Positions 42,309 to 62,142 of a stretch of DNA of 64,000 nt are shown here, one piece after another. The notes beneath the pieces are model-generated. The model was not told the DNA's origin. It made no database searches and saw only the letters and a list, made by a program, of their open reading frames with translations. Within the stretch, counting starts at the first letter, position 1; the number at the start of each line of letters is the position of its first letter. The DNA comes from Cyanobacteria bacterium J06626_4 (GTDB taxonomy: Bacteria; Cyanobacteriota; Cyanobacteriia; Phormidesmidales; Phormidesmidaceae): the NCBI GenBank assembly GCA_038523235.1, contig JBCBJQ010000006.1, forward strand, positions 11,387 through 75,386. Direction: 5' to 3'. Position numbers and translations under genes: made by a program.

Positions 42309-42312
42309 CGGT

Positions 42313-44283: not shown

Positions 44284-44335
44284 AAATGTAATGACGTCGT
44301 GATGACCAACGGTATAAAAGGAGGCTGAGCCAGCC

Positions 44336-45151: not shown

Positions 45152-45178
45152 AACACTCCTGGGAATGACTGCTGAGGA

Positions 45179-48770: not shown

Positions 48771-48811
48771 GAGTGTCTGACCGAACTGGCGTTCAGTTCG
48801 GTCAGACACTC
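48771..48811 (-). terminator. 18-bp perfect hairpin at the 3' end of the surface-protein operon
   Basis: GAGTGTCTGACCGAACTG-GCGTT-CAGTTCGGTCAGACACTC. On the minus strand it is followed by a T-rich run (CCGTTTCTTTTCCC). It lies between convergent genes. Confidence 0.6.
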
Positions 48812-48918
48812 CAGAGTGCTGAAATCGTGATGCGACGAGCCTCCCAATTTCGCATTCCGATCGCGGCATTCCGTCGGGTCTTGCCCGGCGCGACGGATAT
48901 TCTGCTTCACTCCTCAAT

Positions 48919-50970
48919 TTAAGGCAAGCGAACGCGGAAGCGAATCGCCCCAAACTGATTGGCCGGGACGTCAAAGGCACCCGCCACCACGCCACCGCCG
49001 GCACCAACGCCCAGGCCACCAGTGGGACCGGGTGGCCCCAGCGGAAAGCTCCCCGGTGCCGAGAGACAAGAACTCTCTAACGGCGCGCCGGGCGATCGCC
49101 CCTGCACCTGCGATCCGCCGCCGAAAAATAGCGGCGGCGATAGCGGCCGAACCGACGAGAGCTGGAGCCCTGCTGCGGTGTTGAGCACGCTAGGCGGCTG
49201 TAACTCGTCACACACTTGGACCTGATTCACGGTGCTACCGCCGTTGTTCCAGAAGTAAATGGTGTATTCCACTTCGTCATCAGGCTGCAGGGCAAACCCG
49301 GCAGGCAAGGCCACAATACCCGGCAGAGCGTTGCCGCCCCCCAGAGCCGAGTTCAGCGCATTATCATCGACAAACCCAGCTTGGTCGTTAAATTGAGTCA
49401 GTCCAGTCACCGCCACTGGTGCTCCCTGCCGGAAAACATTGCTGATCCGTTTGACCACCACGAGGTTGGGGCCGGTATTAACAAACAACGTCGTCGGCGT
49501 GTTGTTGTTGTTGGGGTTGCCATCGTTGTCGGGGTCAACATTGTTGCCATCTTGAGAGACATCCGTCACCGGATCGCCCCCGCCGAGGGGTGTTCCACTG
49601 GCCGCCGCCAAGTTTTGCGCTTCTAAGATGCCGTCATTGAGTCCGTCAACTGACGGTCCCGCTCCCGTTGCGCCCAAGTCGGCCTGCACGGTCACGACCA
49701 CCGTGGCCGATTCTCCCGGGGCAAATTGATTTGCACTGGTGGCATCAAACAGCGTTGTGACCGACACCCCGTTGTAGACAGGATTGGCAACTGGCGCGAT
49801 GGCAGGTGTCCCCGCCGGGAAGCTGACCGCCACATTTTGGACAGTAAAACTATCCGCGCGGTTGAAAGCATTCGTAATCAAAACCGCCTGCAAATCTTCC
49901 GTTAACTGAACGTTATCCAACGCAATGGTGCCAGTATTAACAACCGTGATGGTGTAGGTAAACTCATAGGTGGTGCCCCCAATCAGCGTGGCTGGACTGA
50001 CAGACTTAGCCACGCCAATGCTCGGAATGCGAATGCGGTTAGACGTGTTGTTGTTAGTCGGGTCACCATCCCCGTCGGGGTCAACATCACTACCGGCTTG
50101 AGACACATCCGTCACCGGGCCGACGCCAGGGGGCGTCCCTGTAGCGATGGCACTGTTGTCAATATCGACGCTGTTATCAGAGGACAGATCTAAGCGGGTC
50201 GTAATCGTGATGATGGCGGTGTCACCAGGATTGAAGTTGCTGCCGGTGCTGAATAAACCAACATCCGTATTGCCGTCATAAGCACCGTTGAAGGTGGGCG
50301 CCGTGCCGGAACCGGTAAAAGTGATCGGGTTGGTCAGGGTGACGCTGACGATGGCATCGGCACCGTCGCTGGGGGCACCGTTGACGGTGGGATTATCGAC
50401 AAAAACCTCTTGCAGATCTTCGGCAATTTGCACGTTGGCCAGGGGCGTATTGCCGGTGTTTCTCACGACAAAAGTGAGATCGACATCGAACAGGCCGGGC
50501 GACCCCGCAACGGGCCGCAGCGCTGAGTTGGTTTTAGCCAGGCCAATACTCGGGGCCGGAATCAGCGTCCGTTTGACCACGGACTGGGTCGTGGGAGTTA
50601 GCGTCGCGCCCGGCACTCCTTCATTCACGGCCTGCTGTCGCACCCGAGCATCGACAAAGGAGGTGCCAGTAATCGTCGTGACATCGACCGGCGGGGCTCC
50701 AGCTTGGGGCGTAACACACAAAAAGAAGGTGACCGATTGGCCCGGTAGCAAAACACCCGTATCGACGACCCCATCACCATCGCTATCGGTCAACGGATTG
50801 CCGTTGACGTCTCTCAACTGGGCCACCACGTTGGCGGCGGTGCCCGTGGCGACGAGGTTGACGATGTCGTTGGTAAAAAAGTTGTTGGTTACCGTGAACG
50901 GGTGACAGACCTCGCTGCCAATGGTGGTGGTCAACGTCGTGTCTTCGACAATGGTAAAGTTACCTGCTCG
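48919..50970. repeat. ~2.05-kb direct repeat, copy A (3' two-thirds of paralogue A)
   Basis: Colinear with 52194-54245 at a constant offset of 3275 nt, with no indels. Roughly 90% nt identity by eye. Identity drops sharply beyond ~50970. Confidence 0.85.
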
Positions 50971-51942
50971 AACCGGTGGCCCATCGAGCACCGGCAGCCC
51001 TCTCAAATTACTATTCGCCTCTAAAATTATCTGGTTGTTTCGGTCGTAGTTGTCAACCACAAAATCCCATCGGCCCGCATTGGCGAGAGGGTCGGCGCTG
51101 ATGTCGATGACATCAGCGCCTGTGTTGAGATCACCACCGTTGTTCCAAACGGCATCACCACTGGTGGTACCGGCGATGGCCGCACCTGTGGGCGACGTAT
51201 AAGAGACAGTAACGTTCGTATCAAACTGGTTATCTAAATCAAAGTTGCGGAGCTGCAGCTCAGTCGCATCAGGGCCAACAATGAAAAACAAACGAAGCCG
51301 CGTCTCTGCATCTGTGCCATTGAACTGAAAGCTACCCTGGAGTTGGCCAATCAACAGGTCATCAACGGGCACAACGATATCGAAAGAGTTGTCGTCGTTG
51401 TTGAGATCAAGCGTGTTGTCACCCAAGATCGGGATGCCCCCCGTTTCACTCGTCACCGTATAGGTGCCGGGTTGGGAAATACCAGTAAAGGTGAAATTAC
51501 TCCCATTAGGTGAACCCGTCGGAAAATCAGCCGTTTGGATAATATTGCCCGCCGGGTCAAGCAAGCGGAACCGAGTGGGGTCCTCAAGGCCATTCACCTC
51601 GTCAGGCACAGCATTGCTCTCACCATCTTCAATGGTAATAGCCACATTGCCCCCAGCCGCATCGATATCAGCTTGACTGATATCGACAAAAATGCGGTGT
51701 ACTGGATCGGTGCTCGCCGTTGTCGTGTTGGTGTACCAGTCGCCAATTGTAATGGCTCGCAAGGGAGCACTGGTTTGAAAGTCTAGACCAGGGACGGCAG
51801 GTAATCGGGTTTGGGCGATCGCGCTAGCCGTCGTCGCCAGGGTGGCTATGGTGGCGAGACTCAACGTGCTAGCCAGACGACTAAGGGCAAATAGGTTGAC
51901 GGATGAGAAAGGAGGAGGGACAGAAAACACAGCTTTTTTCAT
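48919..51942 (-). CDS. large secreted DUF11-repeat surface protein, paralogue A
   Basis: ATG 51942 gives a signal peptide (MKKAVFSV...ATTASAIAQ). It has several DUF11/TIGR01451-like modules (IGLAKTNS..VVRNTGNTPLANVQIAEDL; IGVAKSVS..ITVVNTGTIALDNVQLTEDL) and Asp/Asn-rich DPDGDGDPTNNN loops. Confidence 0.85.
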   Translation of the reverse strand: MKKAVFSVPPPFSSVNLFALSRLASTLSLATIATLATTASAIAQTRLPAVPGLDFQTSAPLRAITIGDWYTNTTTASTDPVHRIFVDISQADIDAAGGNVAITIEDGESNAVPDEVNGLEDPTRFRLLDPAGNIIQTADFPTGSPNGSNFTFTGISQPGTYTVTSETGGIPILGDNTLDLNNDDNSFDIVVPVDDLLIGQLQGSFQFNGTDAETRLRLFFIVGPDATELQLRNFDLDNQFDTNVTVSYTSPTGAAIAGTTSGDAVWNNGGDLNTGADVIDISADPLANAGRWDFVVDNYDRNNQIILEANSNLRGLPVLDGPPVRAGNFTIVEDTTLTTTIGSEVCHPFTVTNNFFTNDIVNLVATGTAANVVAQLRDVNGNPLTDSDGDGVVDTGVLLPGQSVTFFLCVTPQAGAPPVDVTTITGTSFVDARVRQQAVNEGVPGATLTPTTQSVVKRTLIPAPSIGLAKTNSALRPVAGSPGLFDVDLTFVVRNTGNTPLANVQIAEDLQEVFVDNPTVNGAPSDGADAIVSVTLTNPITFTGSGTAPTFNGAYDGNTDVGLFSTGSNFNPGDTAIITITTRLDLSSDNSVDIDNSAIATGTPPGVGPVTDVSQAGSDVDPDGDGDPTNNNTSNRIRIPSIGVAKSVSPATLIGGTTYEFTYTITVVNTGTIALDNVQLTEDLQAVLITNAFNRADSFTVQNVAVSFPAGTPAIAPVANPVYNGVSVTTLFDATSANQFAPGESATVVVTVQADLGATGAGPSVDGLNDGILEAQNLAAASGTPLGGGDPVTDVSQDGNNVDPDNDGNPNNNNTPTTLFVNTGPNLVVVKRISNVFRQGAPVAVTGLTQFNDQAGFVDDNALNSALGGGNALPGIVALPAGFALQPDDEVEYTIYFWNNGGSTVNQVQVCDELQPPSVLNTAAGLQLSSVRPLSPPLFFGGGSQVQGRSPGAPLESSCLSAPGSFPLGPPGPTGGLGVGAGGGVVAGAFDVPANQFGAIRFRVRLP

Positions 51943-52193
51943 GAGCAAGGAAAACTCAAAACGAAAACAGCGATCGCGCAAGGGCAATCCTTATTTAGCT
52001 AGTGAACTCATCGTGAGCACTGACAACACACCCGGCTTATTTCAGCAGATTTACGAAATAGCCTGACGGCTGATCAATCCTCGGTGATGGGACTTCCTGT
52101 ACAACTCAAAAATACTGAGAGGTTAGAGACTAAACCTCGATACACAGCTACGGATGGCAGTTGGCTGATTGCCATCCACAGCGATCCTTCCAC

Positions 52194-54245
52194 TTAAGGT
52201 AGGCGAACGCGGAAGCGAATCGCCCCAAACTGATTGGGCGGTACATCAAAGGCACCCGCCACCACGCCACCGCCAGCACCAACTCCTAAACCACCCGTGG
52301 GGCCGGGTGGCCCCAGCGGAAAGCTCCCCGGTGCCGAGATGCAGGAACTGTCTAACGGTGCACCCGGCGATTGCCCCTGCACCTGCGACCCGCCGCCGAA
52401 GAATAGCGGTGGCGAGAGCGGCCTAACCGATGAGAGCTGGAGCCCCGCTGCGGTATTGAGTACGCTAGGCGGCTGCAGCTCATCACAAAGTCGCACTTGG
52501 CTCACAGCACTGCCGCCGTTGTTCCAGAAGTAAATGGTGTATTCCACTTCGTCATCGGGCTCAAGGGTAAACCCAGCCGGTAAGACAAACACCCCTGATA
52601 GAGAGTTGCCGCCCCCCAGAGCCGAGTTCAGCGCATTGTCATCGATAAACCCAGCTTGGTCGTTAAATTGAGTGAGCCCAGTAACCGCCACTGGTGCTCC
52701 CTGCCGGAAAACATTGCTGATCCGTTTGACCACGACGAGGTTGGGGCCGGTGTTGACAAACAACGTCGTCGGCGTGTTGTTGTTGTTCGGGTTGCCATCG
52801 TTGTCAGGGTCAACATTGTTGCCATCTTGAGAGGCATCCGTCACCGGATCACCCCCGCCAAGGGGCGTGCCGCTGGCTTCAGCGACGTTTTGCGCTTCCA
52901 AGATGCCGTCATTGAGACCGTTAACCGATGGCCCTGCCCCCGTTGCGCCCAAGTCAGCCTGCACCGTCACGACGACTGTGGCTGATTCTCCTGGGGCAAA
53001 TTGATTCGCACTGGTGGCATCAAATAGCGTTGTGACCGATACCCCGTTGTAGGTAGGATTAGCGACCGGTGCGATGGTGGGTGTTCCCGCCGGGAAGCTG
53101 ACCGCCACATTTTGGACGGTAAAACTATCGGCGCGGTTGAAGGCGTTCGTAATCAACGCTGCCTGCAAATCTTCCGTGAGTTGTACGTTGTCTAAAGTGA
53201 TGGTACCAGTATTGACGACAGTGATGGTGTAAGCAAACTCATAGGTCGTCCCCCCAATCAGCGTGGCTGGACTGACTGATTTAGACACGCCAATACTGGG
53301 AATGCGAATGCGATTCGGCACATTGTTGTTCGTCGGGTCGCCATCGTTGTCGGGGTCAACATCACTACCGGCTTGAGACACATCCGTCACCGTACCGCCG
53401 CCCGGGGGTGACCCTGTAGCGGTGGCACTGTTGTCAATGTCAACACTGTTATCAGAGGAGAGATCTAAGCGGGTCGTAATCGTGATGGTGGCAGTGTCAC
53501 CGGGATTGAAGTTGCTACCGGTGCTAAAGAGGCCAACATCCGTATTGCCGTTGTAGGCCCCGTTGAAGGTCGGGGCCGTGCCAGAGCCGGTAAAGGTGAT
53601 CGGGTTAGTCAGGGTGACGCTGACGATGGCATCGGCCCCATCGCTGGGGGCACCATTGACGGTGGGATTGTCAACAAAGACCTCTTGCAGATCTTCGGCA
53701 ATTTGCACGTTGGCCAGGGGCGTGTTGCCGGTGTTTCTCACCACAAAGGTGAGATCGACATCAAACAAGCCGGGCGAGCCGGCCACAGGCCGCAGTGCTG
53801 AGTTGGTTTTAGCCAGGCCAATGCTGGGGGCTGGAATCAAGGTGCGCTTGACGACGGACTGCGGCGTCGGGGTCGCAACTGCCCCCGGTACACCATTAGC
53901 TACCGCCTGCTGTCGCACCCGAGCATCCATAAACGAGGTGCCGGTGATGGTGGTGACATCGACCGACGGAGCTCCGGCTTGGGGGGTGACGCACAAAAAG
54001 AAGGTGACCGATTGCCCAGGTTCTAAAATGCCCGTATCGACAGCACCATCACCATCGCTATCGGTCAGGGGATTGCCGTTGACATCTCTCAGCTGCGCCA
54101 CTACGTTAGCGGCAGTACCAGTAGCAGCGAGGTTAACGATGTCGGTGGTGAAAAAGTTGTTGGTCACCGTGAAGGGGTGACAGACCTCGCTGCCAATGGT
54201 GGTGGTCAACGTCGTGTCTTGCGTAATTGTGAAGTTACCGGCTTG
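52194..54245. repeat. ~2.05-kb direct repeat, copy B (3' two-thirds of paralogue B)
   Basis: See copy A. Identical antisense ORF artefacts (50288-50905 and 53563-54180) confirm colinearity. Confidence 0.85.
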
Positions 54246-55301
54246 AACGGGTTGCTGATCAAATAGCGGGAGTGGGCCATCTTCGCTGTTGGCTTCAACA
54301 ATGGTTTGATTATTATCCGTAAAATTGTCAATGTTGTAAGTCCATAAACCGGCATCGGCTGTTCCAGTCTGATCAACATCGACTACGTCGGCCCCGACGT
54401 TGAGGTTGCCCCCTCCATTCCAAACCCCGTTGGCACTAGCAGTGCCGGGGCTTACTGCGCCAGTCGGCGCTTCGTAGGAAACAGTGCCGCCACCATCAAG
54501 GTCAAAATTACGCAGAAATAGCTGATCAGTCGCTGGCCCAACCAAGAAAAACAGCTCTAAATTGATATCCATTCCTTCGTTCTGTTGCAGAGAGCCGATT
54601 TGCTGACCAATCAAGAGGTTGTCAATAGGAACAGAAATACGAAATGAATTGTCGTCATTATTGGTTTCAAAAGTCGTATCAGTGCGACCAGACAGATAAA
54701 AGCTGCCCGTTTCGCTTCTTACCTGATAATTGCCTGGGGCATTAATCGCCGGAAAACTAAACGTAGACCCTGGCGTTGTCGCAATTGTGCCTGGGCCATT
54801 ATTAAACTCCTGAGATTGAATGAGTATTCCATTCGGGTCAAATAAGGTAAAACGAGTTGGATCCGTAGTGTCATTGATCTCATCAGTAGCCGGATTATCC
54901 GATCCCGGATCTTGGATGCTAATCACGATTGGGCCATTAGCCAGGTCGGCCTCTGTGATACTAATAAAAAAAGTATGAAATCCAGGCGCACCCACCGTAT
55001 CTGCGGTACCCCCCAAAGCCGTTCCACATGACCCGGTGGCATTATTTCCGGCACCGAGGGTCGTATACCAGTCACCAATGTTGGCACAACGACGGGCACC
55101 ACTCGTTTGAAATCTCAGATCCAGAGCAGGATCAGGCAAAACAGTATTTTGAGCATTGGCTGGAGCGCCTGACAGGATGGCTAAAAAGATTGTCAATGCG
55201 CCGAGTTCACGTTTGCCCAAGCGATCAGAGGCAAGCGATTTCACGCTTTGCGGAAGTCGATCATTGCAAGTCAGCAGCAAGTTACGCATCAGGGCAAACA
55301 T
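52194..55301 (-). CDS. large secreted DUF11-repeat surface protein, paralogue B
   Basis: Same architecture as A. Start ATG 55301 or 55289, then a signal-like LGALTIFLAILSGAPANAQ. The C-terminal ~690 aa are nearly identical to A. The N-terminal ~340 aa are divergent but homologous. Confidence 0.85.
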   Translation of the reverse strand: MFALMRNLLLTCNDRLPQSVKSLASDRLGKRELGALTIFLAILSGAPANAQNTVLPDPALDLRFQTSGARRCANIGDWYTTLGAGNNATGSCGTALGGTADTVGAPGFHTFFISITEADLANGPIVISIQDPGSDNPATDEINDTTDPTRFTLFDPNGILIQSQEFNNGPGTIATTPGSTFSFPAINAPGNYQVRSETGSFYLSGRTDTTFETNNDDNSFRISVPIDNLLIGQQIGSLQQNEGMDINLELFFLVGPATDQLFLRNFDLDGGGTVSYEAPTGAVSPGTASANGVWNGGGNLNVGADVVDVDQTGTADAGLWTYNIDNFTDNNQTIVEANSEDGPLPLFDQQPVQAGNFTITQDTTLTTTIGSEVCHPFTVTNNFFTTDIVNLAATGTAANVVAQLRDVNGNPLTDSDGDGAVDTGILEPGQSVTFFLCVTPQAGAPSVDVTTITGTSFMDARVRQQAVANGVPGAVATPTPQSVVKRTLIPAPSIGLAKTNSALRPVAGSPGLFDVDLTFVVRNTGNTPLANVQIAEDLQEVFVDNPTVNGAPSDGADAIVSVTLTNPITFTGSGTAPTFNGAYNGNTDVGLFSTGSNFNPGDTATITITTRLDLSSDNSVDIDNSATATGSPPGGGTVTDVSQAGSDVDPDNDGDPTNNNVPNRIRIPSIGVSKSVSPATLIGGTTYEFAYTITVVNTGTITLDNVQLTEDLQAALITNAFNRADSFTVQNVAVSFPAGTPTIAPVANPTYNGVSVTTLFDATSANQFAPGESATVVVTVQADLGATGAGPSVNGLNDGILEAQNVAEASGTPLGGGDPVTDASQDGNNVDPDNDGNPNNNNTPTTLFVNTGPNLVVVKRISNVFRQGAPVAVTGLTQFNDQAGFIDDNALNSALGGGNSLSGVFVLPAGFTLEPDDEVEYTIYFWNNGGSAVSQVRLCDELQPPSVLNTAAGLQLSSVRPLSPPLFFGGGSQVQGQSPGAPLDSSCISAPGSFPLGPPGPTGGLGVGAGGGVVAGAFDVPPNQFGAIRFRVRLP

Positions 55302-55361
55302 TGGCAAAGTTTTAAAACTCGTGGATTAAGACAACAATCAAGTGACAGAAATGAGCCAGGA

Positions 55362-57419
55362 TTACTCGATTTGCAGATCGGTTTCGACAGCTTCAAAGAT
55401 GATCTCGACGCCTTGGGTATCGCTAAACTCAAACTCAACGCGGCGATCGCGGGCGTAATCTAACCGGGTGCTGCCGGTGGTGCGGCGCTGAGTTTCCCCC
55501 AAGGGGGTAATGCGCATGCGCTCGGGGGCGACGCCCTGTCGCACCAAATAGTCGCGAGCTGCCAAGGCGCGGCGCTCACTCAGGGCCTGGTTGTAGGCGT
55601 CACTGGCGCGGGGGTCGGTGTGGCCCCGCAGCTCGACCACGAGCGAGGGGTAGGTGATCATCGCCGCCGCGATTTGGTCGAGAATCTCGGCACTGGCCGC
55701 ACTGATATTCGACTGATCGAGGGCAAAGTGCACGTTGCGCGGTACTCGCAAGCGAATCGGCTCAGGCGGTGGCTCTGGTGGTGGCGGCTCCACGGCCACC
55801 GGCGGAAAGCAGGTGGCATCGTAGGGAGCAGGCGTGGCTGAGGGGGCGGGTACTTGGCCATCAGCCCCAACCACGCTAATTACCGGTGAGGGTTCGGAGG
55901 TGCCATAGAGCGGATCGGAGGCGATCGCGCTGACCCAATCACTCGCCCCAGTTTCCCAGGTAAAGGCAAAGTTGCCTTCATCATCAGCGGTGGTCGTCAT
56001 CAGCGGTTCGCTGAGGGGACTGTAGACACCGGTATGATCTTTGACGCGATACAGATCGACGCTGCTGCCGGGGTCGGCAGAGCCGGTAAGGGTTAAGGAA
56101 CCGCCCTCGTCAGTAAAGGTATAGGTCGTGAATTCAGGTGCATTAATTGCCCCATTGGCCGTATCGGTGCGGCGATGGTGGGAGTTTCGCGGCGGGTTGG
56201 GGCCATCGGCTCGTTGAAAGTTAACGACGGTATCGCGGCGGGCGGCCAGGTCAATACTGAGGCCGTCGAGCTGCGTAAACTCGTTGTCGCGAATCAGGTT
56301 GCGATCGCTGAGGGGATAGGCCGCGACTGCGACCCCCGCGCCCGGCTGATAGCCGATCGTGTTGCCCAGCAGCTGATGCCCGCGCCCCATGACATACACG
56401 GCAGGCCGCTCAAAGCGACGACCGTTAAAGATCACCTCATTGTCTTGAATGACGGTGCTGCCCTCAGGCTTAAAGAGAAAGATGCCACTGCCGTCGTTGG
56501 CACAGACCAGATTATTGGTGATGGCAGCACCCTCTAAATCCCCTTCTAACCGCACGCCATCCGGCATGCCCGCGACGCCGTTGGCAATAATCGCATTGCC
56601 GGTGAGCTGCAGTCCAGCCGCCCGAAACCCGGTGAGCACGCCGCTGCCCTCATGGTGCTGAATGAAATTATCGGCCACCCGCACGTCAACCCCGTTGAAC
56701 ACGACGACGCCAAAGGCCGATCGCTGATCGGGAATCGACTCATCGGGGCGGAACCCCAACCAGTTTTTCTCAATCACGGCTTGTTGGGTGGCCTGGGTGG
56801 GGTCATCGAGGACAAAGGTCTCAACCGCCGGGGCATCGGGGCTGGAATCGGCTGGCGGCGGCGCATTGGCGATAAAAATATCGGCGGCGGGAGTGGTCAA
56901 GGTCGCCCGCGCCGCTGACCAAAAGCCGTAGAGGTTGAGGCCACGCACGGTGATGTTATCGCCGGCCACGGTAAGCCCGCGAAATACTTCGCTGCCGGGG
57001 GCGGGAGTGAGACTCACCACCGGTCGCGGAATCTCGGGCAGATAGGGCAGCGCTTCGCCATAGCCTGGTTGCGTGGTGCCGTCGATGGTTAAACCGGTGG
57101 CCACCAAGGGCGGCAGCAAACCAGTGAGCACAATAGTGGTGTCATCAGCGGGCAGATCAAAGGCAATACGGCTCTCGGCTGCTGGTGTGACTTGGGCCTG
57201 CTCCAGTGCTGAGAGCGCAGTGACGGGCAGAGTGCCGTTGGCGATCGCGATCGCCTCACGCAGGGTCAGCGCATCATCGGCGATCGGCGCGCCGTCAGCG
57301 GCACTATTGACGGTAATGTCAAAGCCCGTTGGGGGCGGGGTTGAGTCTTGCGCTTGGGTGGCCAGCGCCACCAGACTCAGACTCGGGCTCAGAGCAAGAA
57401 CGGTCCACAGGGTTTTCAT
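55362..57419 (-). CDS. right-handed beta-helix protein with C-terminal OmpA-like peptidoglycan-binding domain
   Basis: Signal peptide MKTLWTVLALSPSLSLVALATQAQ. Parallel beta-helix-like repeats (GNAIIANG.., NNLVCANDGSGI..). C-terminal OmpA_C motifs (LRGHTDPRASDAYNQALSERRALAARDYL). The ATG overlaps the upstream stop (TAATG). Confidence 0.85.
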   Translation of the reverse strand: MKTLWTVLALSPSLSLVALATQAQDSTPPPTGFDITVNSAADGAPIADDALTLREAIAIANGTLPVTALSALEQAQVTPAAESRIAFDLPADDTTIVLTGLLPPLVATGLTIDGTTQPGYGEALPYLPEIPRPVVSLTPAPGSEVFRGLTVAGDNITVRGLNLYGFWSAARATLTTPAADIFIANAPPPADSSPDAPAVETFVLDDPTQATQQAVIEKNWLGFRPDESIPDQRSAFGVVVFNGVDVRVADNFIQHHEGSGVLTGFRAAGLQLTGNAIIANGVAGMPDGVRLEGDLEGAAITNNLVCANDGSGIFLFKPEGSTVIQDNEVIFNGRRFERPAVYVMGRGHQLLGNTIGYQPGAGVAVAAYPLSDRNLIRDNEFTQLDGLSIDLAARRDTVVNFQRADGPNPPRNSHHRRTDTANGAINAPEFTTYTFTDEGGSLTLTGSADPGSSVDLYRVKDHTGVYSPLSEPLMTTTADDEGNFAFTWETGASDWVSAIASDPLYGTSEPSPVISVVGADGQVPAPSATPAPYDATCFPPVAVEPPPPEPPPEPIRLRVPRNVHFALDQSNISAASAEILDQIAAAMITYPSLVVELRGHTDPRASDAYNQALSERRALAARDYLVRQGVAPERMRITPLGETQRRTTGSTRLDYARDRRVEFEFSDTQGVEIIFEAVETDLQIE

Positions 57420-60400
57420 TAGATATCTCCAGCGCTCGGTGCATCGGTGACATCAGCGGGGGATGCCGTCAAGTCATCAGCCGGCGAGGCGTCAGTCGGC
57501 GGCTCGTCCGCCGCTGACTCAGTCGTCGTTTGGTCAGTTATCGTCGAATCATCAGCCGTTGTTTGGTCAACCGTGTCATCGTCAGCGGCCGTCCCTGCTT
57601 CGGGGGCTAATCCTGCTGTCGGGGTGGCCTCATCTCCCGGCGTGGTGGCCGTATCGACATAGGATTCTTCTTGCTGAGCGGGGCTGACCGGCTGCTGCAG
57701 GCCAAAGTCATTCAGCAGCTCATTCACCTTGAGCTGAATGCCCAGATAGGGGCCGCTGGCTGAGCGATAACCGCCACCAAAGCCGTCATTGTCAACGCTG
57801 CCAAAGCTGTAGCCCACCCCGACCCGCAGGTCAGGCGTCAAATAGTAGCCCAGCTCCAGGGAGGTGCCGACTTCATTGAAACTGGCTTCTGGCTGGGTGA
57901 TATAGCGTACCTCGCCCAAAATATCCCAGCGATAGGCAAACTGATAGGCAGTGCGGAACTGCATCAGGTGAATCGAGTTCGAGAACCCGAAATCTTCCGC
58001 CAGCGTCGCATCGCTAATCCGAAAGGCGTATTTGCCGTAAAACTCCCACTGCCAGTTGGGCGCATAAATCGCTTCCAAAGCGAGGGTGTGATCCGAGGAG
58101 CTAATGCCGCTATCAATCAGCAGCGTATCGGGCGTCGTCGATGGGTTACGCCGGTATTCGTAGCTCATCAGCGCGTTCCACTGGTCGCTGATCGGGTTGC
58201 GATAGGCCATGCCCAGCTTCAAGTCGATCGAGTTGCCCAGATTGCCGGTAATTCGCTGGTTCGCAAAGTTAGCCTGCTGATAGCGAAACAGCGTGGTCAG
58301 GGAATTCGTGATCTTGCCGGCCGCTGCCGCCGTGAGGACAGTGTTGCTGCCCACCGATGAGTTCCGATGCTCAATCCGCGCACTGGCTTGAAAGTCAGGA
58401 TTCGCCGTATATTCCAAGCCGACGGAGTAGGAGGTGCCGCCGATAATGCCCAGGGCGCTGGCTCCTGCCCCGACAGCAAAGGGCTGTTCAAACTGATCAC
58501 CCGCTCCCGTTTCATTGAAGGAATCGTCAATCACGTGCTCAATGCCCACGGTGGCTCGCAAGCCGGGGGCCAACACAATGCGGTGATTCAGCCCCAGAGC
58601 GGCCTGACCAATTAACCCGCCGTAGCCGCCAATGAGAGAGTAGCGACTGCGCAGCGAGGTGTTTTCGCCCAATTCATAATCCACCAGGGTGTCCAGACTG
58701 GTGATGTTGCGCAGTTCGTCGCCGCCGATAAACTGCTGCGACAGGCGCATGGTGACGCCTGGCTGCACGGCCCAGTCCAGCGCTAGGGTAGTGCGATCGG
58801 GATACAGGGTGTCACTATCACCGCCCACATTGATTTCGCTCTGGGCGCGGAAGCTGAGGTCAGGCGAGATGGGAATCGCCAGCTGCGGCACAAACTGCTG
58901 AGAGTTGGTCGTTTCATTGTCGAGGCGATCGCGGCGGTTGCGGCTGACATAATCAAGCCCAATATTCACAGTGCCGATTTCCTGCCAGACACCGGCGCGA
59001 TAGGTGGTTAGGGTATTGTCTACCCGCTCACCTGGCTCCGAAAACTGGCCCGGATTAAAGAGGTCTACCGCGTCCGTCGTCACCTCCGGCGCACGGCCGC
59101 GATTAATCTCTTGATCAAACTGGGCGTTAAGGCGGGTCGTCGGCCCAACTTGGGCATTGACCCCAGCCCCCCAACGCGTTTGACCGGGGCGAAAGCTCGT
59201 CGTCGCCGTGTTGGCAAACCCACTATCGGCGCTGCGCAGATAGGCGCGCCCCTGCACGGTGGGCGCAAACAACGCCCCTTGAGCTTCTAAGCGATAGGCA
59301 CTGCCGTCAGCGGATTCACCAAACCGATCAAAGGAGGACCGGGCATATTCTCCGGTGAAGTAGCCGGTGTCGCCGAGGGGAATCTGCAGGTCGGCGCCGT
59401 ACAGCGAGAAGTCTTGGTCACCCTGATCTTCCGATAGCCAGGTGACGCCGGCCCAACCGCCGAGGGTAGGTTGGCCGGCTTTAAAGTTGTACTGCAGCCG
59501 CCCCGCATAGAGATTGCCATTGCCGCCCCCATCATCCACCTCGTAAGTGGCGACAATCCGACGCACCAGGGTTTTACCGAGGGGGTCAACCGACGTGCGA
59601 TAAATGGGCTGACGAAACAGCAGCGTGCCGCGATCGTAATCAATCTCGTAGTCGCTAACCCGATTTAAAGCTTGTCGCTCAATTACCGTGCCAGGACGAT
59701 TGATTTCTTCGGTCTCGATAAAGACGTTTTCACTACCGGGCAGGATGACCCGCCGCGAGAGGAAATAGAAGCCACTGGTGCCATCAGGGGCGATCGTATC
59801 GCGCTGAAAGGGCCGCAGATTGTTGGCATACATCGCCGTCAGCTGCAGATTGCCCAGCGTGTAGTTGCCCTTAAAGCCGTGAAGCTGACGCGTGATCGCC
59901 GTAAACTCTTGGGACGATCGCGCAAACTCCGAAGTTTCGTAATCGCCCCACATGAAGTAATCGACCTCGCCGCCGGGCACCAGCGCATCGCGCTGAAACC
60001 GCACAAAGAAGCTATCGATTGAGGGCGTTAGATAATCAACCTGAGAACTATCGCCGTAGACCGGGTAGGTATTTTCGCAAAACTGATCATCGCGAAACAG
60101 GCGGTTGCCATCACAGGTTTCATTCAGGGCGCGGCGGGTATTGAGGGCACCGGTAAACTGCCAATCGCCCAAAGTGCCGGTCGCAAATAGCGCCGCCCCC
60201 AAGTCAAACTCCGTGTCGCCAATGTCGTCAGGGTTGAGAAAGTCCTCAAAGCTGCCCCAAAAGTTGGTGCCGCCTGGCCCAATGCGCAGATCAACAACGC
60301 CGGAAACCAATGAAGGCCGCAGGTTAGTGACAAACTCAACCTGGGTGAAAGTTTCGAAATCAGGGAGCGGCTCCAAGGCGATGGGTTCGTCTTCCCCCAG

Positions 60401-61135
60401 CACAGCAGCGGCGGGCGCAGCAGCCCGAACGCGCACCTGCTGTGCCTCAAGGGTGGACTGCAACACCGCCTCAAACTGACCTTGGCGAGCCAAAACTTGG
60501 AACCCGGCGTTGTCGGTATCGTAGTCAGCCCCCTGAAATTCACCAGCACCGGTGGTTAGCGTCACCACCACATCGCGGGGGATGGGGGTCCCGGCAGCAT
60601 CAACGATGCGCCCCTCAAATCGCACCGTCGATCGCTGGTTGGCGGGGATGACGGGACTGGTAAGCGCAGTGAGTTCAATCGTAAATTCCGGCTCGGTGGC
60701 CGCTGGGTCCGCCGCATTAGGCGGGATCGGGGGCACCGGAGTGGGGTTGGACTGAGCCGTTAGCGGCCCGTCTGCCGCCTCTGCTCTCGTTTCGGCAGCG
60801 AGCGCCAGATCGGCGAGCGTGACCGGTCGCAAGTTGCCGGTCAACGCCGGAGAGGGGGCATCAGCCACCGGCAACGGCGAACTATCGGCGGTCAGCAGGG
60901 ATGAAGCCCCCACGGCTGACTCAGACATGGCATCGGGGGTTGAAGCCAGTGCCCGAGGGATTGTCTCGGCGGCCTCAGGAGCTGTGGTTGATTTGGGCTC
61001 CGCCTTACGCCTCGGACGAGTCGCGGCATCAGTAGGACCTTCGTCAGTCGATTGGGCGTTCGCGACGCCCAACATATCCGTGGCGATCGCGCTGATCATT
61101 AGCCAGCCAATCATGGCAATGAGGGTTTTCATCAC
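57419..61135 (-). CDS. 1238-aa predicted outer-membrane beta-barrel protein with Ig-like N-domain and acidic C-terminal tail
   Basis: Signal peptide ending VANAQ. P/A/T-rich linker. Ig-like module (TVRFEGRIVDAAGTPIPRDVVVTLTT). About 850 aa of alternating-hydrophobicity strands rich in Y/G/N/R/D. The last ~90 aa are D/T/A/E/P-rich. The ATGA start overlaps the upstream gene. Confidence 0.8.
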   Translation of the reverse strand: MMKTLIAMIGWLMISAIATDMLGVANAQSTDEGPTDAATRPRRKAEPKSTTAPEAAETIPRALASTPDAMSESAVGASSLLTADSSPLPVADAPSPALTGNLRPVTLADLALAAETRAEAADGPLTAQSNPTPVPPIPPNAADPAATEPEFTIELTALTSPVIPANQRSTVRFEGRIVDAAGTPIPRDVVVTLTTGAGEFQGADYDTDNAGFQVLARQGQFEAVLQSTLEAQQVRVRAAAPAAAVLGEDEPIALEPLPDFETFTQVEFVTNLRPSLVSGVVDLRIGPGGTNFWGSFEDFLNPDDIGDTEFDLGAALFATGTLGDWQFTGALNTRRALNETCDGNRLFRDDQFCENTYPVYGDSSQVDYLTPSIDSFFVRFQRDALVPGGEVDYFMWGDYETSEFARSSQEFTAITRQLHGFKGNYTLGNLQLTAMYANNLRPFQRDTIAPDGTSGFYFLSRRVILPGSENVFIETEEINRPGTVIERQALNRVSDYEIDYDRGTLLFRQPIYRTSVDPLGKTLVRRIVATYEVDDGGGNGNLYAGRLQYNFKAGQPTLGGWAGVTWLSEDQGDQDFSLYGADLQIPLGDTGYFTGEYARSSFDRFGESADGSAYRLEAQGALFAPTVQGRAYLRSADSGFANTATTSFRPGQTRWGAGVNAQVGPTTRLNAQFDQEINRGRAPEVTTDAVDLFNPGQFSEPGERVDNTLTTYRAGVWQEIGTVNIGLDYVSRNRRDRLDNETTNSQQFVPQLAIPISPDLSFRAQSEINVGGDSDTLYPDRTTLALDWAVQPGVTMRLSQQFIGGDELRNITSLDTLVDYELGENTSLRSRYSLIGGYGGLIGQAALGLNHRIVLAPGLRATVGIEHVIDDSFNETGAGDQFEQPFAVGAGASALGIIGGTSYSVGLEYTANPDFQASARIEHRNSSVGSNTVLTAAAAGKITNSLTTLFRYQQANFANQRITGNLGNSIDLKLGMAYRNPISDQWNALMSYEYRRNPSTTPDTLLIDSGISSSDHTLALEAIYAPNWQWEFYGKYAFRISDATLAEDFGFSNSIHLMQFRTAYQFAYRWDILGEVRYITQPEASFNEVGTSLELGYYLTPDLRVGVGYSFGSVDNDGFGGGYRSASGPYLGIQLKVNELLNDFGLQQPVSPAQQEESYVDTATTPGDEATPTAGLAPEAGTAADDDTVDQTTADDSTITDQTTTESAADEPPTDASPADDLTASPADVTDAPSAGDI

Positions 61136-62142
61136 CCTTGCTCCTCCCCAAATGCGGGTGTGACCCCAAAGTTCATCCGTGCCAGTCCGCCTGGCGATAA
61201 CCGCACCAGCCGAGACTGGCTATTGTCTGCCAGTCGGTAAAGATTCGGAGCGAGGGTGTAACCTGGCAGGCTGGTCAGATCAAGCGTGCCGACGCGGTTC
61301 CCCGACAAGACGTTAATCACTGAGAACAGTCCATCCGGGTCAGTCAAAATCCGGTTGCCATCATCTAAAAAGACGATGGCGTTAGGCACACCCGGCTCAC
61401 CGGCCTGCTGCTCGCCGTCAAAGTTTTTATCCACAAACACGCGGCCCACCAGGGTGCCACAGTCGGCCAAAATGCCGGGTCGAATCGCCAGCTCGTAGGT
61501 AGCCGTACTGCTTGCCCCAGGGGTGATCGCCTGCGCCACGTTACGCCCTGAGCCGCGCACCGCATCGGGGGTCGCTAAGGCCGCATAAACCACCGATAGT
61601 TCTTGCCCCGGCGCGAGTGAAGCACCGCCAAAATCGAGGGTAAAGGTGCGGTTACTGGTCGTCACATTGGTGAACTGCAGGGGGGTGGTGTTGACCGAGT
61701 CTTCAATGAACTGCATCCCTAACGGCAGCTCGTCCACGATGGTGATCGGGCCAGCCGGCTGATCGGAGGGATTGCGTACCAGCAATCGATAAACGACCAC
61801 GTCACCGGGTTCGGCAGCCCCCCGATCAGCAGTTTTGATGATGGTCAAAGCCGCTGATGAAGCGCCACTCGCCTGCAGAGTAGTCGGATTCGACTGCACC
61901 GATTGAACGGTTCCTGCGGCGTCAGTAAACTGCGCCCCAGCCTGGTTTTCAACATTAGTCGTTTGAGCATACGCCGGGGCAAAACCCCATCGAGGCGCAC
62001 TGTTGGCCCAAGCTAGCACCTGCACCAGCAAAAACGCGATCGCAGCGACCAAAAAGTATTTGCTTTTACGAAAACCGGCTAGGCGCCTGAACAATTTCGC
62101 AATGCGATCGAGAATGGAATTAATCCAAACAAGTTGCGACAT
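61132..62142 (-). CDS. DUF11 domain + SdrD-B/carboxypeptidase-regulatory-like domain protein
   Basis: 336-aa ORF with an N-terminal anchor/signal (YFLVAAIAFLLVQVLAWANS). DUF11-like LTIIKTADRGAAEPGDVVVYRLLVRNPSDQPAGPITIVDELP. SdrD-B-like GRVFVDKNFDGEQQAGEPGVPNAIVFLDDGNRILTDPDGLFSV. Confidence 0.8.
   Translation of the reverse strand: MSQLVWINSILDRIAKLFRRLAGFRKSKYFLVAAIAFLLVQVLAWANSAPRWGFAPAYAQTTNVENQAGAQFTDAAGTVQSVQSNPTTLQASGASSAALTIIKTADRGAAEPGDVVVYRLLVRNPSDQPAGPITIVDELPLGMQFIEDSVNTTPLQFTNVTTSNRTFTLDFGGASLAPGQELSVVYAALATPDAVRGSGRNVAQAITPGASSTATYELAIRPGILADCGTLVGRVFVDKNFDGEQQAGEPGVPNAIVFLDDGNRILTDPDGLFSVINVLSGNRVGTLDLTSLPGYTLAPNLYRLADNSQSRLVRLSPGGLARMNFGVTPAFGEEQG

What the first reader, a model, noticed from the sequence alone, without database searches (positions are those of the whole stretch)
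48919..62142. Five-gene envelope operon: candidate undescribed surface-fibre/adhesin export and anchoring system
Seen in the sequence: five co-directional genes run from 62142 to 48919. The first three are translationally coupled (ATGA overlap at 61132-61135, TAATG overlap at 57419). The gaps before the last two genes are 60 and 206 nt. A 1.2-kb ORF-free region precedes the operon and an 18-bp hairpin closes it. All five products start with signal- or anchor-like hydrophobic segments. The products, in order, are a DUF11 plus SdrD-B-like protein (336 aa), a 1238-aa protein whose central ~850 aa look like a very large beta-barrel, a beta-helix protein ending in an OmpA-type peptidoglycan-binding domain, and two ~1030-aa multi-DUF11 proteins. 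Established knowledge: DUF11 (TIGR01451 conserved repeat) and SdrD-B/Cna-B folds build Gram-positive pilins and adhesins and chlamydial OmcB, and OmpA_C domains tether complexes to peptidoglycan. Inference: no sortase, usher/chaperone, T1SS, TpsB/T5SS or T9SS component is present. The giant barrel is therefore the obvious candidate for the pore or anchor that gets the DUF11 fibres across, or fixed in, a diderm outer membrane, with the OmpA protein as the periplasmic tether and the small DUF11 protein as an adaptor or base subunit. I cannot name a described secretion or assembly system with this composition.
Basis: partly seen in the sequence, partly recalled or inferred. Interest (0 to 1): 0.8.

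Follow-up and report, generated by a model that had tools for sequence, protein, structure and literature searches.

The report
Giant-barrel envelope system for isopeptide fibres
A cyanobacterial five-gene operon encodes a roughly 38-stranded outer-membrane barrel, a small tightly conserved partner, a cell-wall tether and two large fibre-like proteins; the same parts travel together, sometimes fused into one protein, in many bacterial phyla, yet they match no described secretion, pilus or uptake system.

Summary
Domain calls are confirmed: g1 is DUF11/CLIPPER plus an SdrD_B-like domain, g3 is a beta-helix plus OmpA_C, and g4/g5 are CLIPPER_2 proteins. g2 hits no Pfam or NCBIfam model and no PDB sequence. 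AlphaFold gives g2 an Ig-like domain followed by about 38-40 long beta-strands; Foldseek finds only generic large barrels (TM 0.15-0.30).

Synteny is very strong. A g1-like gene abuts the barrel gene in 72 of 72 cyanobacterial loci, a beta-helix gene follows in 43 of 63, and a DUF11 protein with a conserved C-terminal domain follows in 49 of 53.

Distant relatives in Desulfobacterota and Proteobacteria are about 2000-aa single chains. These fuse a g1-like DUF11-CnaB segment, often an OmpA or SLH wall-binding domain, the Ig domain and the barrel. This supports the adaptor and tether roles.

The NCBI label "TonB-dependent receptor" fails its defining features. Usher, T5SS, T9SS, LptD and sortase membership also fail.

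Best reading: an uncharacterised, widespread outer-membrane platform that passes and anchors isopeptide-locked fibrillar proteins and transfers load to peptidoglycan. Export itself is inferred, and a purely periplasmic scaffold remains a live rival. The only prior mention found is a table entry for unstudied "38-stranded, invasin-D3" barrels in Deinococcus.

The parts
61132..62142 (-). g1: 336-aa secreted CLIPPER(DUF11) + CnaB/SdrD_B-like protein, the constant partner of the barrel
   Evidence: PF01345 scores 33.3 bits (cut-off 24.6), TIGR01451 42 bits, and SdrD_B is a weak hit. A g1-like gene abuts the barrel gene in 72/72 loci. g1 is homologous (E 1e-16 to 4e-37) to the segment just upstream of the barrel module in fused homologs.
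61486..61848 (-). g1 CLIPPER domain (res 99-219) with invariant K103/D137/N201 isopeptide-type triad
   Evidence: AF2 pLDDT is about 90. The best Foldseek hit is the CLIPPER crystal structure 9IFR (TM 0.75, E 1.7e-8), followed by Gram-positive shaft and basal pilins. The triad is invariant in 46 sequences.
61135..61485 (-). g1 C-terminal CnaB-like domain (res 220-336), nearly invariant, with a single invariant Cys228; candidate barrel-binding or plug element
   Evidence: Mean column identity is 0.89, yet AF2 pLDDT is only 26-45. SdrD_B is a weak hit at residues 234-282.
57419..61135 (-). g2: 1238-aa outer-membrane protein: signal peptide, Pro/Ala-rich linker, Ig-like domain, giant barrel, acidic tail
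   Evidence: No Pfam or NCBIfam model is hit above threshold and no PDB sequence is hit. More than 578 species genomes carry a relative, and there are 1985 clusters at E<=1e-3.
60416..60688 (-). g2 N-terminal Ig-like domain (res 150-240; Big_1/Invasin_D3-like)
   Evidence: AF2 gives a beta-sandwich with pLDDT 80-92. Homologs give weak Invasin_D3, Big_1 and GH2_C5 hits.
57716..60358 (-). g2 giant beta-barrel region (res 260-1140), about 38-40 long strands
   Evidence: DSSP on the AF2 model (pLDDT 76, pTM 0.64). Foldseek finds only generic large barrels such as SlpA, MtrB, SprA, LptD, TBDTs and FimD at TM 0.15-0.30.
60011..60139 (-). g2 conserved Cys loop (res 333-375; C341 and C353 invariant; motif YPVYGDSS)
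   Evidence: Column identity is 0.80 and pLDDT is 29-37. The invariant columns are listed. Both cysteines are absent from the fused homolog P0328.
59573..59809 (-). g2 conserved small beta subdomain inserted in the barrel (res 443-521; motif DGTSGxYFLSR...DYEIDYDRGTLLF)
   Evidence: It has the densest run of invariant columns and column identity 0.79. The motif is also conserved in the 24%-identical Geomonas homolog.
55362..57419 (-). g3: 685-aa secreted beta-helix + Ig + Pro-rich linker + OmpA_C peptidoglycan-binding protein
   Evidence: OmpA PF00691 scores 63 bits, Beta_helix 31.5 bits, NosD 23.8 bits, and Big_6 is a weak hit. PDB OmpA/Pal C-domains match at E 1e-13. A g3-like gene follows the barrel in 43/63 loci, 38 of them with an OmpA domain.
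55452..55727 (-). g3 OmpA_C-like domain (res 565-656)
   Evidence: The motif TDPRASDAYNQALSERRA is readable.
52194..55307 (-). g4: 1037-aa fibrillar CLIPPER_2 protein (variable head, two CLIPPER_2 domains, conserved C-terminal domain); the start is probably ATG 55301
   Evidence: DUF7507 scores 54 bits and TIGR01451 40 bits.
48919..51987 (-). g5: 1022-aa tandem paralog of g4 with a diverged head; the start is probably ATG 51942
   Evidence: 78% identity overall; heads 57% and the remainder 93.5%. Repeat period is 3275 nt.
52197..52766 (-). g4 C-terminal ~190-aa CLIPPER-like domain ending ...NQFGAIRFRVRLP; the candidate docking or anchor module
   Evidence: It is conserved at the extreme C-terminus of the downstream DUF11 proteins in 49/53 loci, with consensus ending GF[VI]RFR[VA][RK][VI]x.
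48922..49491 (-). g5 C-terminal domain (same module as in g4)
   Evidence: 91.5% identical to the g4 copy.
48770..48812 (-). intrinsic-terminator-like 19-bp hairpin plus T-run that closes the operon
62143..63335 (-). 1.2-kb AT-rich non-coding leader or promoter region
   Evidence: GC is 0.47. There is no ORF of 80 aa or more and no Rfam hit. Weak sigma-70-like sites lie at 62407-62363.

Best explanation
The operon encodes a conserved, so far uncharacterised outer-membrane machine.

Proposed parts and roles:
- g2 is a BAM-inserted barrel of about 38 strands. Both of its termini are periplasmic, and it carries a periplasmic Ig-like domain.
- g1 is a CLIPPER plus CnaB protein and a permanent subunit of the barrel. 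It is probably a periplasmic adaptor, and its invariant C-terminal domain probably docks on or plugs the barrel.
- g3 ties the complex to peptidoglycan through its OmpA_C domain.
- g4 and g5 are the cargo. They are Sec-exported fibrillar proteins built of isopeptide-type Ig-like domains.

Proposed mechanism: the conserved C-terminal domain of the cargo is recognised and retained by the g1/g2 platform, while the variable N-terminal head is passed through the very wide barrel lumen and displayed on the cell surface. Pulling forces on the fibre would then be transmitted to the cell wall rather than to the lipid bilayer.

Shown here: gene structure, domain identities, the lack of membership in known barrel families, synteny, cross-phylum fusion of the g1-like, wall-binding and barrel modules, and the contrast between a conserved cargo C-terminal domain and a variable head.

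Inferred, not shown: physical complex formation, passage of cargo through the barrel, surface exposure, and load transfer to the wall.
For: - Synteny: g1-g2 are adjacent in 72/72 cyanobacterial loci. A g3-like gene follows in 43/63, and a DUF11 protein bearing the C-terminal domain follows in 49/53 (annotated examples).
- N-terminal fusions: relatives of about 2000 aa in Syntrophales, Geomonas, Polaromonas, Steroidobacteraceae and others have the order signal peptide, CnaB, DUF11, SdrD_B, then OmpA_C or SLH in many of them (Polaromonas and Steroidobacteraceae lack a detectable wall-binding domain), Ig, barrel. g1 aligns to exactly the segment before the barrel module (E down to 4e-37). The barrel aligns end to end with the Geomonas protein (E 1e-42).
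- C-terminal fusion: a barrel followed by OmpA also exists (P0128).
- Neighbours: the fused loci also carry separate DUF11 proteins next door that end on the same type of terminal strand.
- Barrel size: about 38-40 strands, in line with "38-stranded, invasin-D3" barrels predicted in Deinococcus. The standard barrel-geometry formula gives a backbone diameter of about 70 A, which is wide enough for a folded Ig-like domain (inference).
- Cargo pattern: heads vary between species (g4N-like heads occur only in close relatives; LTD and FlgD_ig heads in Nostoc) and between the two paralogs here (57% against 93.5%). This is the pattern expected of exposed functional tips on a constant stalk.
- g1 fold: the g1 CLIPPER domain matches 9IFR and Gram-positive pilins and keeps the K/D/N triad. 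CLIPPER domains are characteristic of fibrillar surface adhesins (PMC12617251) and form surface fibres in Chloroflexota.
- Candidate interfaces: the g1 C-terminal domain and the g2 Cys loop are the most conserved yet least confidently modelled parts.
Against: - There is no localisation, interaction or phenotype evidence, and no co-fold could be run.
- In the fused homologs the wall-binding domain lies between the DUF11-CnaB segment and the barrel. The simplest topology therefore keeps that segment, and by homology g1, in the periplasm. By itself this also fits a wholly periplasmic assembly.
- g3 is missing in about a third of cyanobacterial loci, and OmpA is missing in more.
- The conserved terminal strand of the cargo may simply be the last strand of a CLIPPER fold, carrying the isopeptide Asn, rather than a sorting signal.
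- The strand count and barrel closure could not be checked on coordinates.
Confidence: 0.5

Rival explanations
1. Periplasmic scaffold or outer-membrane-to-wall connector. The barrel is mainly a membrane anchor, as in SlpA/OmpM. g1, g3 and the large DUF11 proteins stay in the periplasm and form a rigid, isopeptide-stabilised layer or strut between outer membrane and peptidoglycan, comparable to chlamydial OmcB.
For: - Fused homologs place OmpA_C (Geomonas P0328, residues 843-941) or three SLH domains (P0186) between the DUF11-CnaB segment and the barrel.
- The top Foldseek hit of the barrel is SlpA, an OM-PG connector.
- Several fused homologs hit Chlam_OMP6 (PF03504).
- An OmpA domain is also fused C-terminal to the barrel in P0128.
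Against: - A barrel of about 38 strands is far larger than anchoring needs, and the SlpA match is generic (TM 0.23).
- Cargo heads are hypervariable and include LTD and FlgD_ig-type modules, which is unusual for a periplasmic lattice.
- CLIPPER repeats are typical of surface fibres.
- The wall tether is dispensable in many loci.
Confidence: 0.2
2. Anchor for an S-layer or sheath. g4/g5-type proteins form a two-dimensional coat or sheath layer rather than discrete fibres or adhesins. The barrel complex is their membrane-embedded base.
For: - DUF11 proteins are annotated as COG1361 S-layer family in some homologs.
- The family is abundant in sheathed filamentous cyanobacteria.
- There is usually only one cargo gene, at most three, per locus.
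Against: - There is no evidence for lattice-forming contacts.
- The heads differ strongly between paralogs in the same cell.
- This is mechanistically a sub-case of the best explanation: it still needs export through, or anchoring on, the barrel.
Confidence: 0.12
3. Glycan export or modification. The barrel exports a polysaccharide, the g3 beta-helix (NosD/CASH-like) binds or modifies it in the periplasm as AlgG does, and the DUF11 proteins bind the polymer.
For: - Beta_helix and NosD hits in g3.
- Glycosyltransferase, pyruvyl-transferase and sulfotransferase genes lie near some homologous loci.
Against: - No Wza, PgaA, BcsC or AlgE-like hit for the barrel.
- g3 is absent from a third of loci and from the fused systems.
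- The invariant partners are DUF11 proteins, not glycan enzymes.
- The neighbouring glycan genes are not conserved.
Confidence: 0.06
4. Ordinary nutrient channel. g2 is a TonB-dependent receptor or porin, as NCBI labels its homologs, and the neighbouring DUF11 genes are functionally unrelated.
For: - The NCBI name "TonB-dependent receptor" appears on most homologs.
- Weak Porin_4 and DUF2490 similarity at the C-terminal strands.
- TBDTs appear among the Foldseek hits.
Against: - No Plug (PF07715) or TonB_dep_Rec (PF00593) hit and no NCBIfam hit.
- About 38 strands rather than 22.
- 72/72 adjacency with g1, and covalent fusion to DUF11-CnaB segments in other phyla.
- Foldseek TM to TBDTs is only 0.15-0.27.
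Confidence: 0.03

Closest known systems
Chaperone-usher pilus pathway (FimD/PapC ushers)
   Same: An outer-membrane barrel with a periplasmic N-terminal beta-sandwich domain and a small conserved beta subdomain inserted within the barrel. It is encoded in an operon with Sec-exported Ig-like subunits. There is no ATP source in the periplasm.
   Different: About 38 strands rather than 24. No Usher, PapC_N or PapC_C Pfam hit and no periplasmic chaperone gene. The subunits are complete CnaA/CnaB-type isopeptide domains and very large proteins, not incomplete Ig pilins. Foldseek TM to FimD is 0.16-0.30.
Type IX secretion translocon SprA/Sov with CTD cargo
   Same: A single-chain giant barrel (36 strands in SprA) able to pass folded proteins. 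Cargo shares a conserved C-terminal domain and has variable N-terminal functional parts. DUF11-type fibres (GhpA) are T9SS cargo in Aureispira.
   Different: No sequence relationship. No PorV/PorK/L/M/N or T9SS-type CTD. The hosts are Cyanobacteria, Desulfobacterota and Proteobacteria rather than Bacteroidota. A DUF11-CnaB adaptor and a wall-binding domain are integral parts here. Foldseek TM is 0.17-0.19.
Type V secretion (autotransporters, two-partner, intimin/invasin)
   Same: In the fused homologs an N-terminal Ig-repeat region and a C-terminal barrel share one chain. The cyanobacterial form is split into two genes, as in two-partner systems. Intimin likewise combines a wall-binding domain, a barrel and Big_1/invasin-type Ig domains.
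   Different: T5SS barrels have 12 or 16 strands. There is no POTRA, Autotransporter or ShlB hit. The wall-binding domain sits between the "passenger-like" part and the barrel. Separate large cargo proteins are present.
SlpA/OmpM outer-membrane-peptidoglycan connectors
   Same: A large barrel (the SlpA barrel has 30 strands and is the best Foldseek hit) coupled to a periplasmic wall-binding module. One distant homolog (P0186) carries three SLH domains before the barrel.
   Different: The window protein has no SLH or coiled coil. Wall binding is supplied by a separate OmpA_C protein. DUF11 partners are obligatory. The structural match is generic (TM 0.23).
Sortase-assembled Gram-positive pili and CLIPPER fibrillar adhesins
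   Same: CnaA-like (CLIPPER) and CnaB-like domains with a Lys/Asp/Asn triad. The g1 domain superposes on 9IFR (TM 0.75) and on shaft and basal pilins such as LrpA, EbpB and PilB. The Acinetobacter CLIPPER adhesin also ends in an OmpA-like anchor.
   Different: The host is diderm. There is no sortase and no LPXTG signal. A dedicated giant barrel is encoded alongside.
Uncharacterised "38-stranded barrels with N-terminal invasin-D3 Ig domains" of Deinococcus radiodurans (PMC9388160, Table S3)
   Same: The same predicted architecture: an Ig (invasin D3-like) domain followed by a barrel of about 38 strands.
   Different: They are only listed, and no function, partners or family definition are given.

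Membership tests
TonB-dependent receptor (the NCBI name for g2 homologs) | N-terminal plug domain (PF07715) with a TonB box | tested here: not met
   No PF07715 hit in g2 or in 7 homologs at E<=0.1, and no NCBIfam hit at E<=0.01. The N-terminus is a Pro/Ala-rich linker followed by an Ig-like domain.
TonB-dependent receptor (the NCBI name for g2 homologs) | 22-stranded barrel (PF00593) | tested here: not met
   No PF00593 hit. The AF2 model has about 38-40 strands. Foldseek TM to TBDTs is 0.15-0.27.
Fimbrial usher (chaperone-usher pathway) | Usher domain PF00577 with PapC_N and PapC_C, and a 24-strand barrel with a plug | tested here: not met
   No such Pfam hits. FimD Foldseek TM is 0.16-0.30. 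A small inserted beta subdomain exists, but its position relative to the lumen could not be checked.
Fimbrial usher (chaperone-usher pathway) | Cognate periplasmic PapD-like chaperone gene in the operon | tested here: not met
   None of the five genes, nor the 30 other window ORFs scanned with Pfam, is PapD-like.
Type V secretion (autotransporter / TpsB / intimin) | 12- or 16-strand translocator domain (PF03797, PF03865 plus POTRA, or PF11924) | tested here: not met
   No hits, and the barrel is about three times larger.
Type IX secretion | SprA/Sov translocon, and cargo with a T9SS C-terminal domain (TIGR04183/PF18962) | tested here: not met
   No Pfam or NCBIfam hit on g2, g4 or g5. SprA Foldseek TM is 0.17-0.19. 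The host is a cyanobacterium.
LptD | OstA/LptD N- and C-terminal domains (PF03968/PF04453) | tested here: not met
   No hits. LptD Foldseek TM is 0.12-0.28.
Sortase-dependent pilus | Sortase gene, and an LPXTG-type C-terminal sorting signal on subunits | tested here: not met
   g1, g4 and g5 end without LPXTG or a hydrophobic tail. No sortase was found among the window ORFs scanned.
CLIPPER (DUF11, PF01345 / TIGR01451) isopeptide domain family | HMM match above the curated cut-off, and a CnaA-like fold | tested here: met
   g1 scores 33.3 bits on PF01345 (cut-off 24.6) and 42 bits on TIGR01451. g4/g5 score 53-54 bits on PF24346. The g1 model matches 9IFR at TM 0.75.
CLIPPER (DUF11, PF01345 / TIGR01451) isopeptide domain family | Lys / Asp(Glu) / Asn isopeptide triad | tested here: met
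   K103, D137 and N201 are invariant in 46 g1 homologs, with spacing close to 9IFR K715/D748/N806. Actual bond formation was not tested.
OmpA_C-like peptidoglycan-binding domain | PF00691 match above cut-off, with the conserved TD...N..LS..RA motif | tested here: met
   63.2 bits against a cut-off of 27.2. Pal and OmpA C-domain structures match at E 1e-13 to 1e-11. The motif is readable.
SlpA/OmpM-type OM-PG connector | N-terminal SLH domain plus coiled-coil stalk fused to the barrel | tested here: not met
   No SLH or coiled coil in g2. Only one distant homolog (P0186) has SLH domains.
Deinococcus "38-stranded / invasin-D3" barrels (PMC9388160) | Ig (invasin D3-like) domain followed by a predicted 38-strand barrel | tested here: inconclusive
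   The architecture matches. Sequence homology could not be tested because those sequences are not held here.

The most novel reading that the evidence does not exclude
This is a new, phylogenetically widespread outer-membrane secretion and assembly pathway of diderm bacteria. A barrel of about 38 strands, with a built-in or separately encoded CLIPPER-CnaB adaptor and a peptidoglycan-binding module, passes pre-folded, isopeptide-locked Ig-domain proteins to the surface. It retains them by their conserved C-terminal domain. This would be the diderm counterpart of sortase-built fibres, working without sortase, usher, T5SS or T9SS parts.
Probability: 0.35. Interest if true: 0.9.

Novelty: categorically new. 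Interest (0 to 1): 0.78.

Why it matters
How Gram-negative and other diderm bacteria place the very common DUF11/CLIPPER fibrillar proteins on their surface is unknown. The 2025 CLIPPER survey describes the domains but no export route.

A dedicated giant-barrel platform would add a new entry to the short list of outer-membrane secretion and assembly systems. It would also:
- explain about 2000 protein clusters now labelled "hypothetical", "TonB-dependent receptor" or "repeat protein";
- give a handle on adhesion, aggregation, sheath or mat formation in filamentous cyanobacteria;

Even under the rival reading, a periplasmic scaffold, it would be a new kind of envelope-stabilising structure. The split (cyanobacteria) and fused (Proteobacteria, Desulfobacterota) forms make the hypothesis directly testable in genetically tractable hosts.

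Tried and rejected
- An exact-sequence look-up of g2 found no contig. Homolog contigs were used instead.
- A profile search of the 1.84-billion-protein library with alignment A1 failed because the profile exceeded 1200 positions. It was rerun with the single core sequence.
- A Pfam scan of the whole alignment, and of 8 homologs at once, exceeded the size limits. It was rerun on 7 homologs.
- PDB sequence searches of g1, g2 and g4 gave nothing.
- Rfam found nothing in or around the operon.
- Literature searches for DUF11/CLIPPER together with cyanobacteria, outer membrane, barrel, isopeptide, Nostoc, Geobacter or Deinococcus found no description of this gene set. Hits were irrelevant.
- The GldAFG-like ABC cluster downstream was considered as part of the system. 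It was rejected because it is not syntenic in other genomes.
- The conserved cargo C-terminus was considered as a PEP-CTERM, LPXTG or T9SS signal. It was rejected: there are no matching motifs or HMM hits, and it looks like the final strand of a CLIPPER-type fold.
- Co-folding g1 with g2 was not possible with the tools (single chains only, and coordinates are not returned). Plug position, lumen and exact strand number therefore remain unchecked.

Full report
**Observation.** The translations are. g1 and g2 overlap: the junction reads GGG TGA TGA AAA, so g2 starts at GTG 61135 or ATG 61132. g2 and g3 overlap as TAATG. g4 and g5 most likely begin at ATG 55301 and ATG 51942, after gaps of about 60 and about 250 nt. 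A 19-bp GC-rich hairpin with a T-run at 48812-48770 is the strongest terminator-like site in the region. The 1.2 kb upstream of g1 is AT-rich and ORF-free, with no Rfam match. Each product begins with a hydrophobic segment ending in an AxA|Q-type cleavage site. In g1 that Gln is invariant among homologs. The organism is a Leptolyngbyaceae-type cyanobacterium; the nearest homologs are 95-98% identical.

**Domain content.**
- g1 hits DUF11/CLIPPER above threshold and SdrD_B weakly.
- g3 has Beta_helix/NosD, a weak Big_6 Ig domain, a Pro-rich linker and a strong OmpA_C domain.
- g4 and g5 have two CLIPPER_2 (DUF7507/TIGR01451) domains and a DUF7619-like C-terminal domain. Their first ~40% matches nothing.
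- g4 and g5 are a 3275-nt tandem duplicate. The stalk and C-terminus are 93.5% identical, but the heads are only 57% identical.
- g2 matches no Pfam or NCBIfam family above threshold and no PDB sequence.
- The 30 other large window ORFs scanned with Pfam are mostly housekeeping genes, and none is a sortase, usher or chaperone, T1SS, TpsB or T9SS gene.

**The barrel.** An AlphaFold2 model of g2 residues 150-1145, built with 78 homologs, has pLDDT 76 and pTM 0.64. It shows an N-terminal Ig-like sandwich followed by 39 long strands by DSSP. The strands are interrupted by two conserved elements. One is a poorly modelled Cys-containing loop (protein residues 333-375). The other is a small, highly conserved beta subdomain (residues 443-521, motif DYEIDYDRGTLLF). 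The parity of long and short connections flips twice, so I give the count as 38-40.

Foldseek against the PDB returns only generic large barrels at TM 0.15-0.30: SlpA (30 strands), MtrB (26), SprA (36), LptD (26), TonB-dependent transporters (22) and FimD (24). Seven homologs show only weak Big_1/Invasin_D3 hits at the Ig domain and weak DUF2490 or porin hits at the last strands. The NCBI name "TonB-dependent receptor" carried by most homologs therefore fails both defining features of that family.

[quoted passage not shown] The architecture is the same, and no function is given.

**Conservation and synteny.** The barrel family is found in at least 578 species genomes of the GTDB set. The best 80 are all cyanobacteria, from Leptolyngbya and Nodosilinea to Nostoc, Calothrix, Microcoleus, Coleofasciculus and Waterburya. 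Six-frame BLAST over these loci gave the following:
- A g1-like gene abuts the barrel gene in 72 of 72 loci that have upstream sequence.
- A beta-helix gene follows in 43 of 63 loci, and 38 of these have an OmpA domain.
- A downstream DUF11 protein carrying the g4-type C-terminal domain is present in 49 of 53 loci.

Annotated examples from Geitlerinema PCC 7407, Coleofasciculus and Leptolyngbya PCC 7375 show the same order. Some Nostocales lack g3, have a larger g1, and have cargo with other heads such as LTD and FlgD_ig.

**Rosetta-stone fusions.** A search of 1.84 billion representatives found 1985 clusters at E<=1e-3. The distant ones (27-30% identity over the whole core) are proteins of 1900-2900 aa whose last ~900 residues are the barrel. 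Their order is: signal peptide, CnaB/CarboxypepD_reg, DUF11, SdrD_B, then in many an OmpA_C domain or, in one, three SLH domains, then Ig, then barrel.

The Geomonas limicola protein aligns with g2 from residue 16 to 990 of the core (E 1e-42), including the signature motifs. g1 aligns (E 1e-16 to 4e-37) precisely with the DUF11-SdrD_B segment that precedes the barrel module in eight such proteins. A closer relative (P0128, 49% identical) instead has OmpA fused after the barrel. Wall-binding domains thus occur at both ends of the barrel, as expected if both termini are periplasmic.

These fused genes occur in Syntrophales, Geomonas, Polaromonas, Steroidobacteraceae, Methylophilaceae and Rhodanobacter. 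In the two loci examined in detail (Geomonas, Polaromonas) they are flanked by separate DUF11 proteins, small and large; a third fused locus, from an unnamed assembly, is preceded by one truncated ORF that ends on the same kind of strand. The association of a giant barrel, a DUF11-CnaB adaptor, a wall-binding domain and free DUF11 proteins is thus ancient and cross-phylum.

**Cargo signature.** The last ~190 residues of g4/g5 form a CLIPPER-like domain (KRIT..., GDEVEYTIYF, two Cys). This domain is conserved at the extreme C-terminus of the downstream proteins in about 65 loci and ends GF[VI]RFR[VA][RK][VI]x. The N-terminal heads are unrelated between lineages. Neighbours of the fused barrels in Geomonas and Polaromonas end on the same kind of strand. 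Part of this conservation is simply the final strand of the fold, including the probable isopeptide Asn. Still, a conserved C-terminal module combined with a variable head is what a recognised or anchored cargo would look like.

**g1 in detail.** g1 is unusually conserved for an Ig-repeat protein. Its CLIPPER domain is modelled at pLDDT about 90. It superposes on the CLIPPER crystal structure 9IFR (TM 0.75) and then on Gram-positive shaft and basal pilins. K103, D137 and N201 are invariant. Its C-terminal CnaB-like domain is the most conserved part (column identity 0.89), yet it is modelled at pLDDT 26-45. The g2 Cys loop behaves the same way. I read these two regions as candidate mutual interfaces that fold only in the complex; this is inference. 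The single invariant Cys of g1 and the two invariant Cys of g2 are all missing from the fused homologs. A disulfide may therefore replace the lost peptide link; this is speculation.

**Mechanism.** The best-supported reading is a stable outer-membrane platform made of g2, g1 and usually a wall tether (g3). It serves the large CLIPPER proteins.
- *Why export and anchoring is the most likely function:* barrels of more than 24 strands in known systems enclose or pass proteins (LptDE, MtrCAB, SprA). A 38-strand barrel has a backbone diameter of about 70 A by the standard geometry, enough for folded Ig domains. The cargo has Sec signals, variable heads and mechanically locked domains typical of surface fibres. 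A wall tether makes sense as a load path.
- *The main caveat:* in the fused proteins the wall-binding domain lies between the DUF11-CnaB segment and the barrel. That segment, and hence g1, is therefore most simply periplasmic. This fits a periplasmic adaptor or plug, but it equally fits a wholly periplasmic scaffold akin to chlamydial OmcB or an SlpA-like connector.

I put export and anchoring at about 0.5, the periplasmic scaffold at 0.2, an S-layer or sheath base at 0.12, glycan export at 0.06 and a plain nutrient channel at 0.03.

**Comparison and novelty.** The system works most like a chaperone-usher or T9SS-type arrangement: a barrel plus Ig-like cargo with a conserved terminal module. 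In its fused form it looks superficially like an autotransporter. It nevertheless fails the defining features of each of these families, and of TonB-dependent receptors, LptD and sortase pili (see the membership table). Its domains do belong to the CLIPPER and OmpA_C families. I found no paper that describes the gene set. The only prior trace is the Deinococcus table entry. I therefore rate it as lying outside the known kinds of envelope systems, with the function still to be demonstrated.

Noticed in passing
window 41541-46243 (-): A four-gene ABC-2 cluster: ABC_tran, ABC2_membrane, a GldG-like ABC_transp_aux and DUF4340. It resembles the GldAFG gliding-associated transporter. It lies about 2.7 kb downstream of the operon but is not syntenic with it in other genomes.
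   Followed up: partly
window 18927-19688 and 19782-20504 (+): Two tandem paralogous Phage_lysozyme (GH24) genes, each with an ~100-aa N-terminal extension.
   Followed up: no
window 26739-28049 (+) and 24377-26590 (+): A protein with two SLH domains plus a CAP (cysteine-rich secretory) domain, next to a NACHT-family NTPase.
   Followed up: no
window 62143-63335: A 1.2-kb AT-rich (GC 0.47) stretch upstream of g1 with no convincing ORF and no Rfam match. It could hold a long leader or an unknown regulatory element. The usual upstream neighbours in other genomes (ndhL, DUF3007, trpA) are not seen here; a 217-aa ORF with no Pfam hit (63336-63989) takes their place.
   Followed up: partly
g1 residue C228 (window ~61459-61461); g2 residues C341 and C353 (within window 60011-60139): Three invariant cysteines occur only in the split cyanobacterial form. 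Fused homologs from other phyla lack all three. A disulfide may substitute for the missing peptide link.
   Followed up: partly
window 57422-57700 (-) and 60689-61054 (-): g2 carries a ~93-aa acidic Thr/Asp/Ala/Pro-rich C-terminal tail, and a ~120-aa Pro/Ala-rich N-terminal linker after the signal peptide. In some relatives the N-terminal region extends to 500-850 residues with no Pfam domain.
   Followed up: partly
window 61122-61132 and 57409-57419 (-): g2 (from its ATG) and g3 begin with the same 11 nucleotides, ATGAAAACCCT (MKTL).
   Followed up: no
public annotation of g2 homologs (P0001-P0120): Most NCBI records call this family "TonB-dependent receptor" although no plug or TBDR model matches. 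This is probably a propagated misannotation.
   Followed up: yes
window 52119-52138 (-): A weak terminator-like hairpin with a T-run lies in the g4-g5 intergenic gap, so g5 may be partly uncoupled from the upstream genes.
   Followed up: no
L085 7343-7888 (+): In one fused-type locus, from an unnamed assembly whose closest named relatives are Syntrophales/Deltaproteobacteria MAGs, the barrel gene is followed directly by an OmpH/Skp periplasmic chaperone gene.
   Followed up: no
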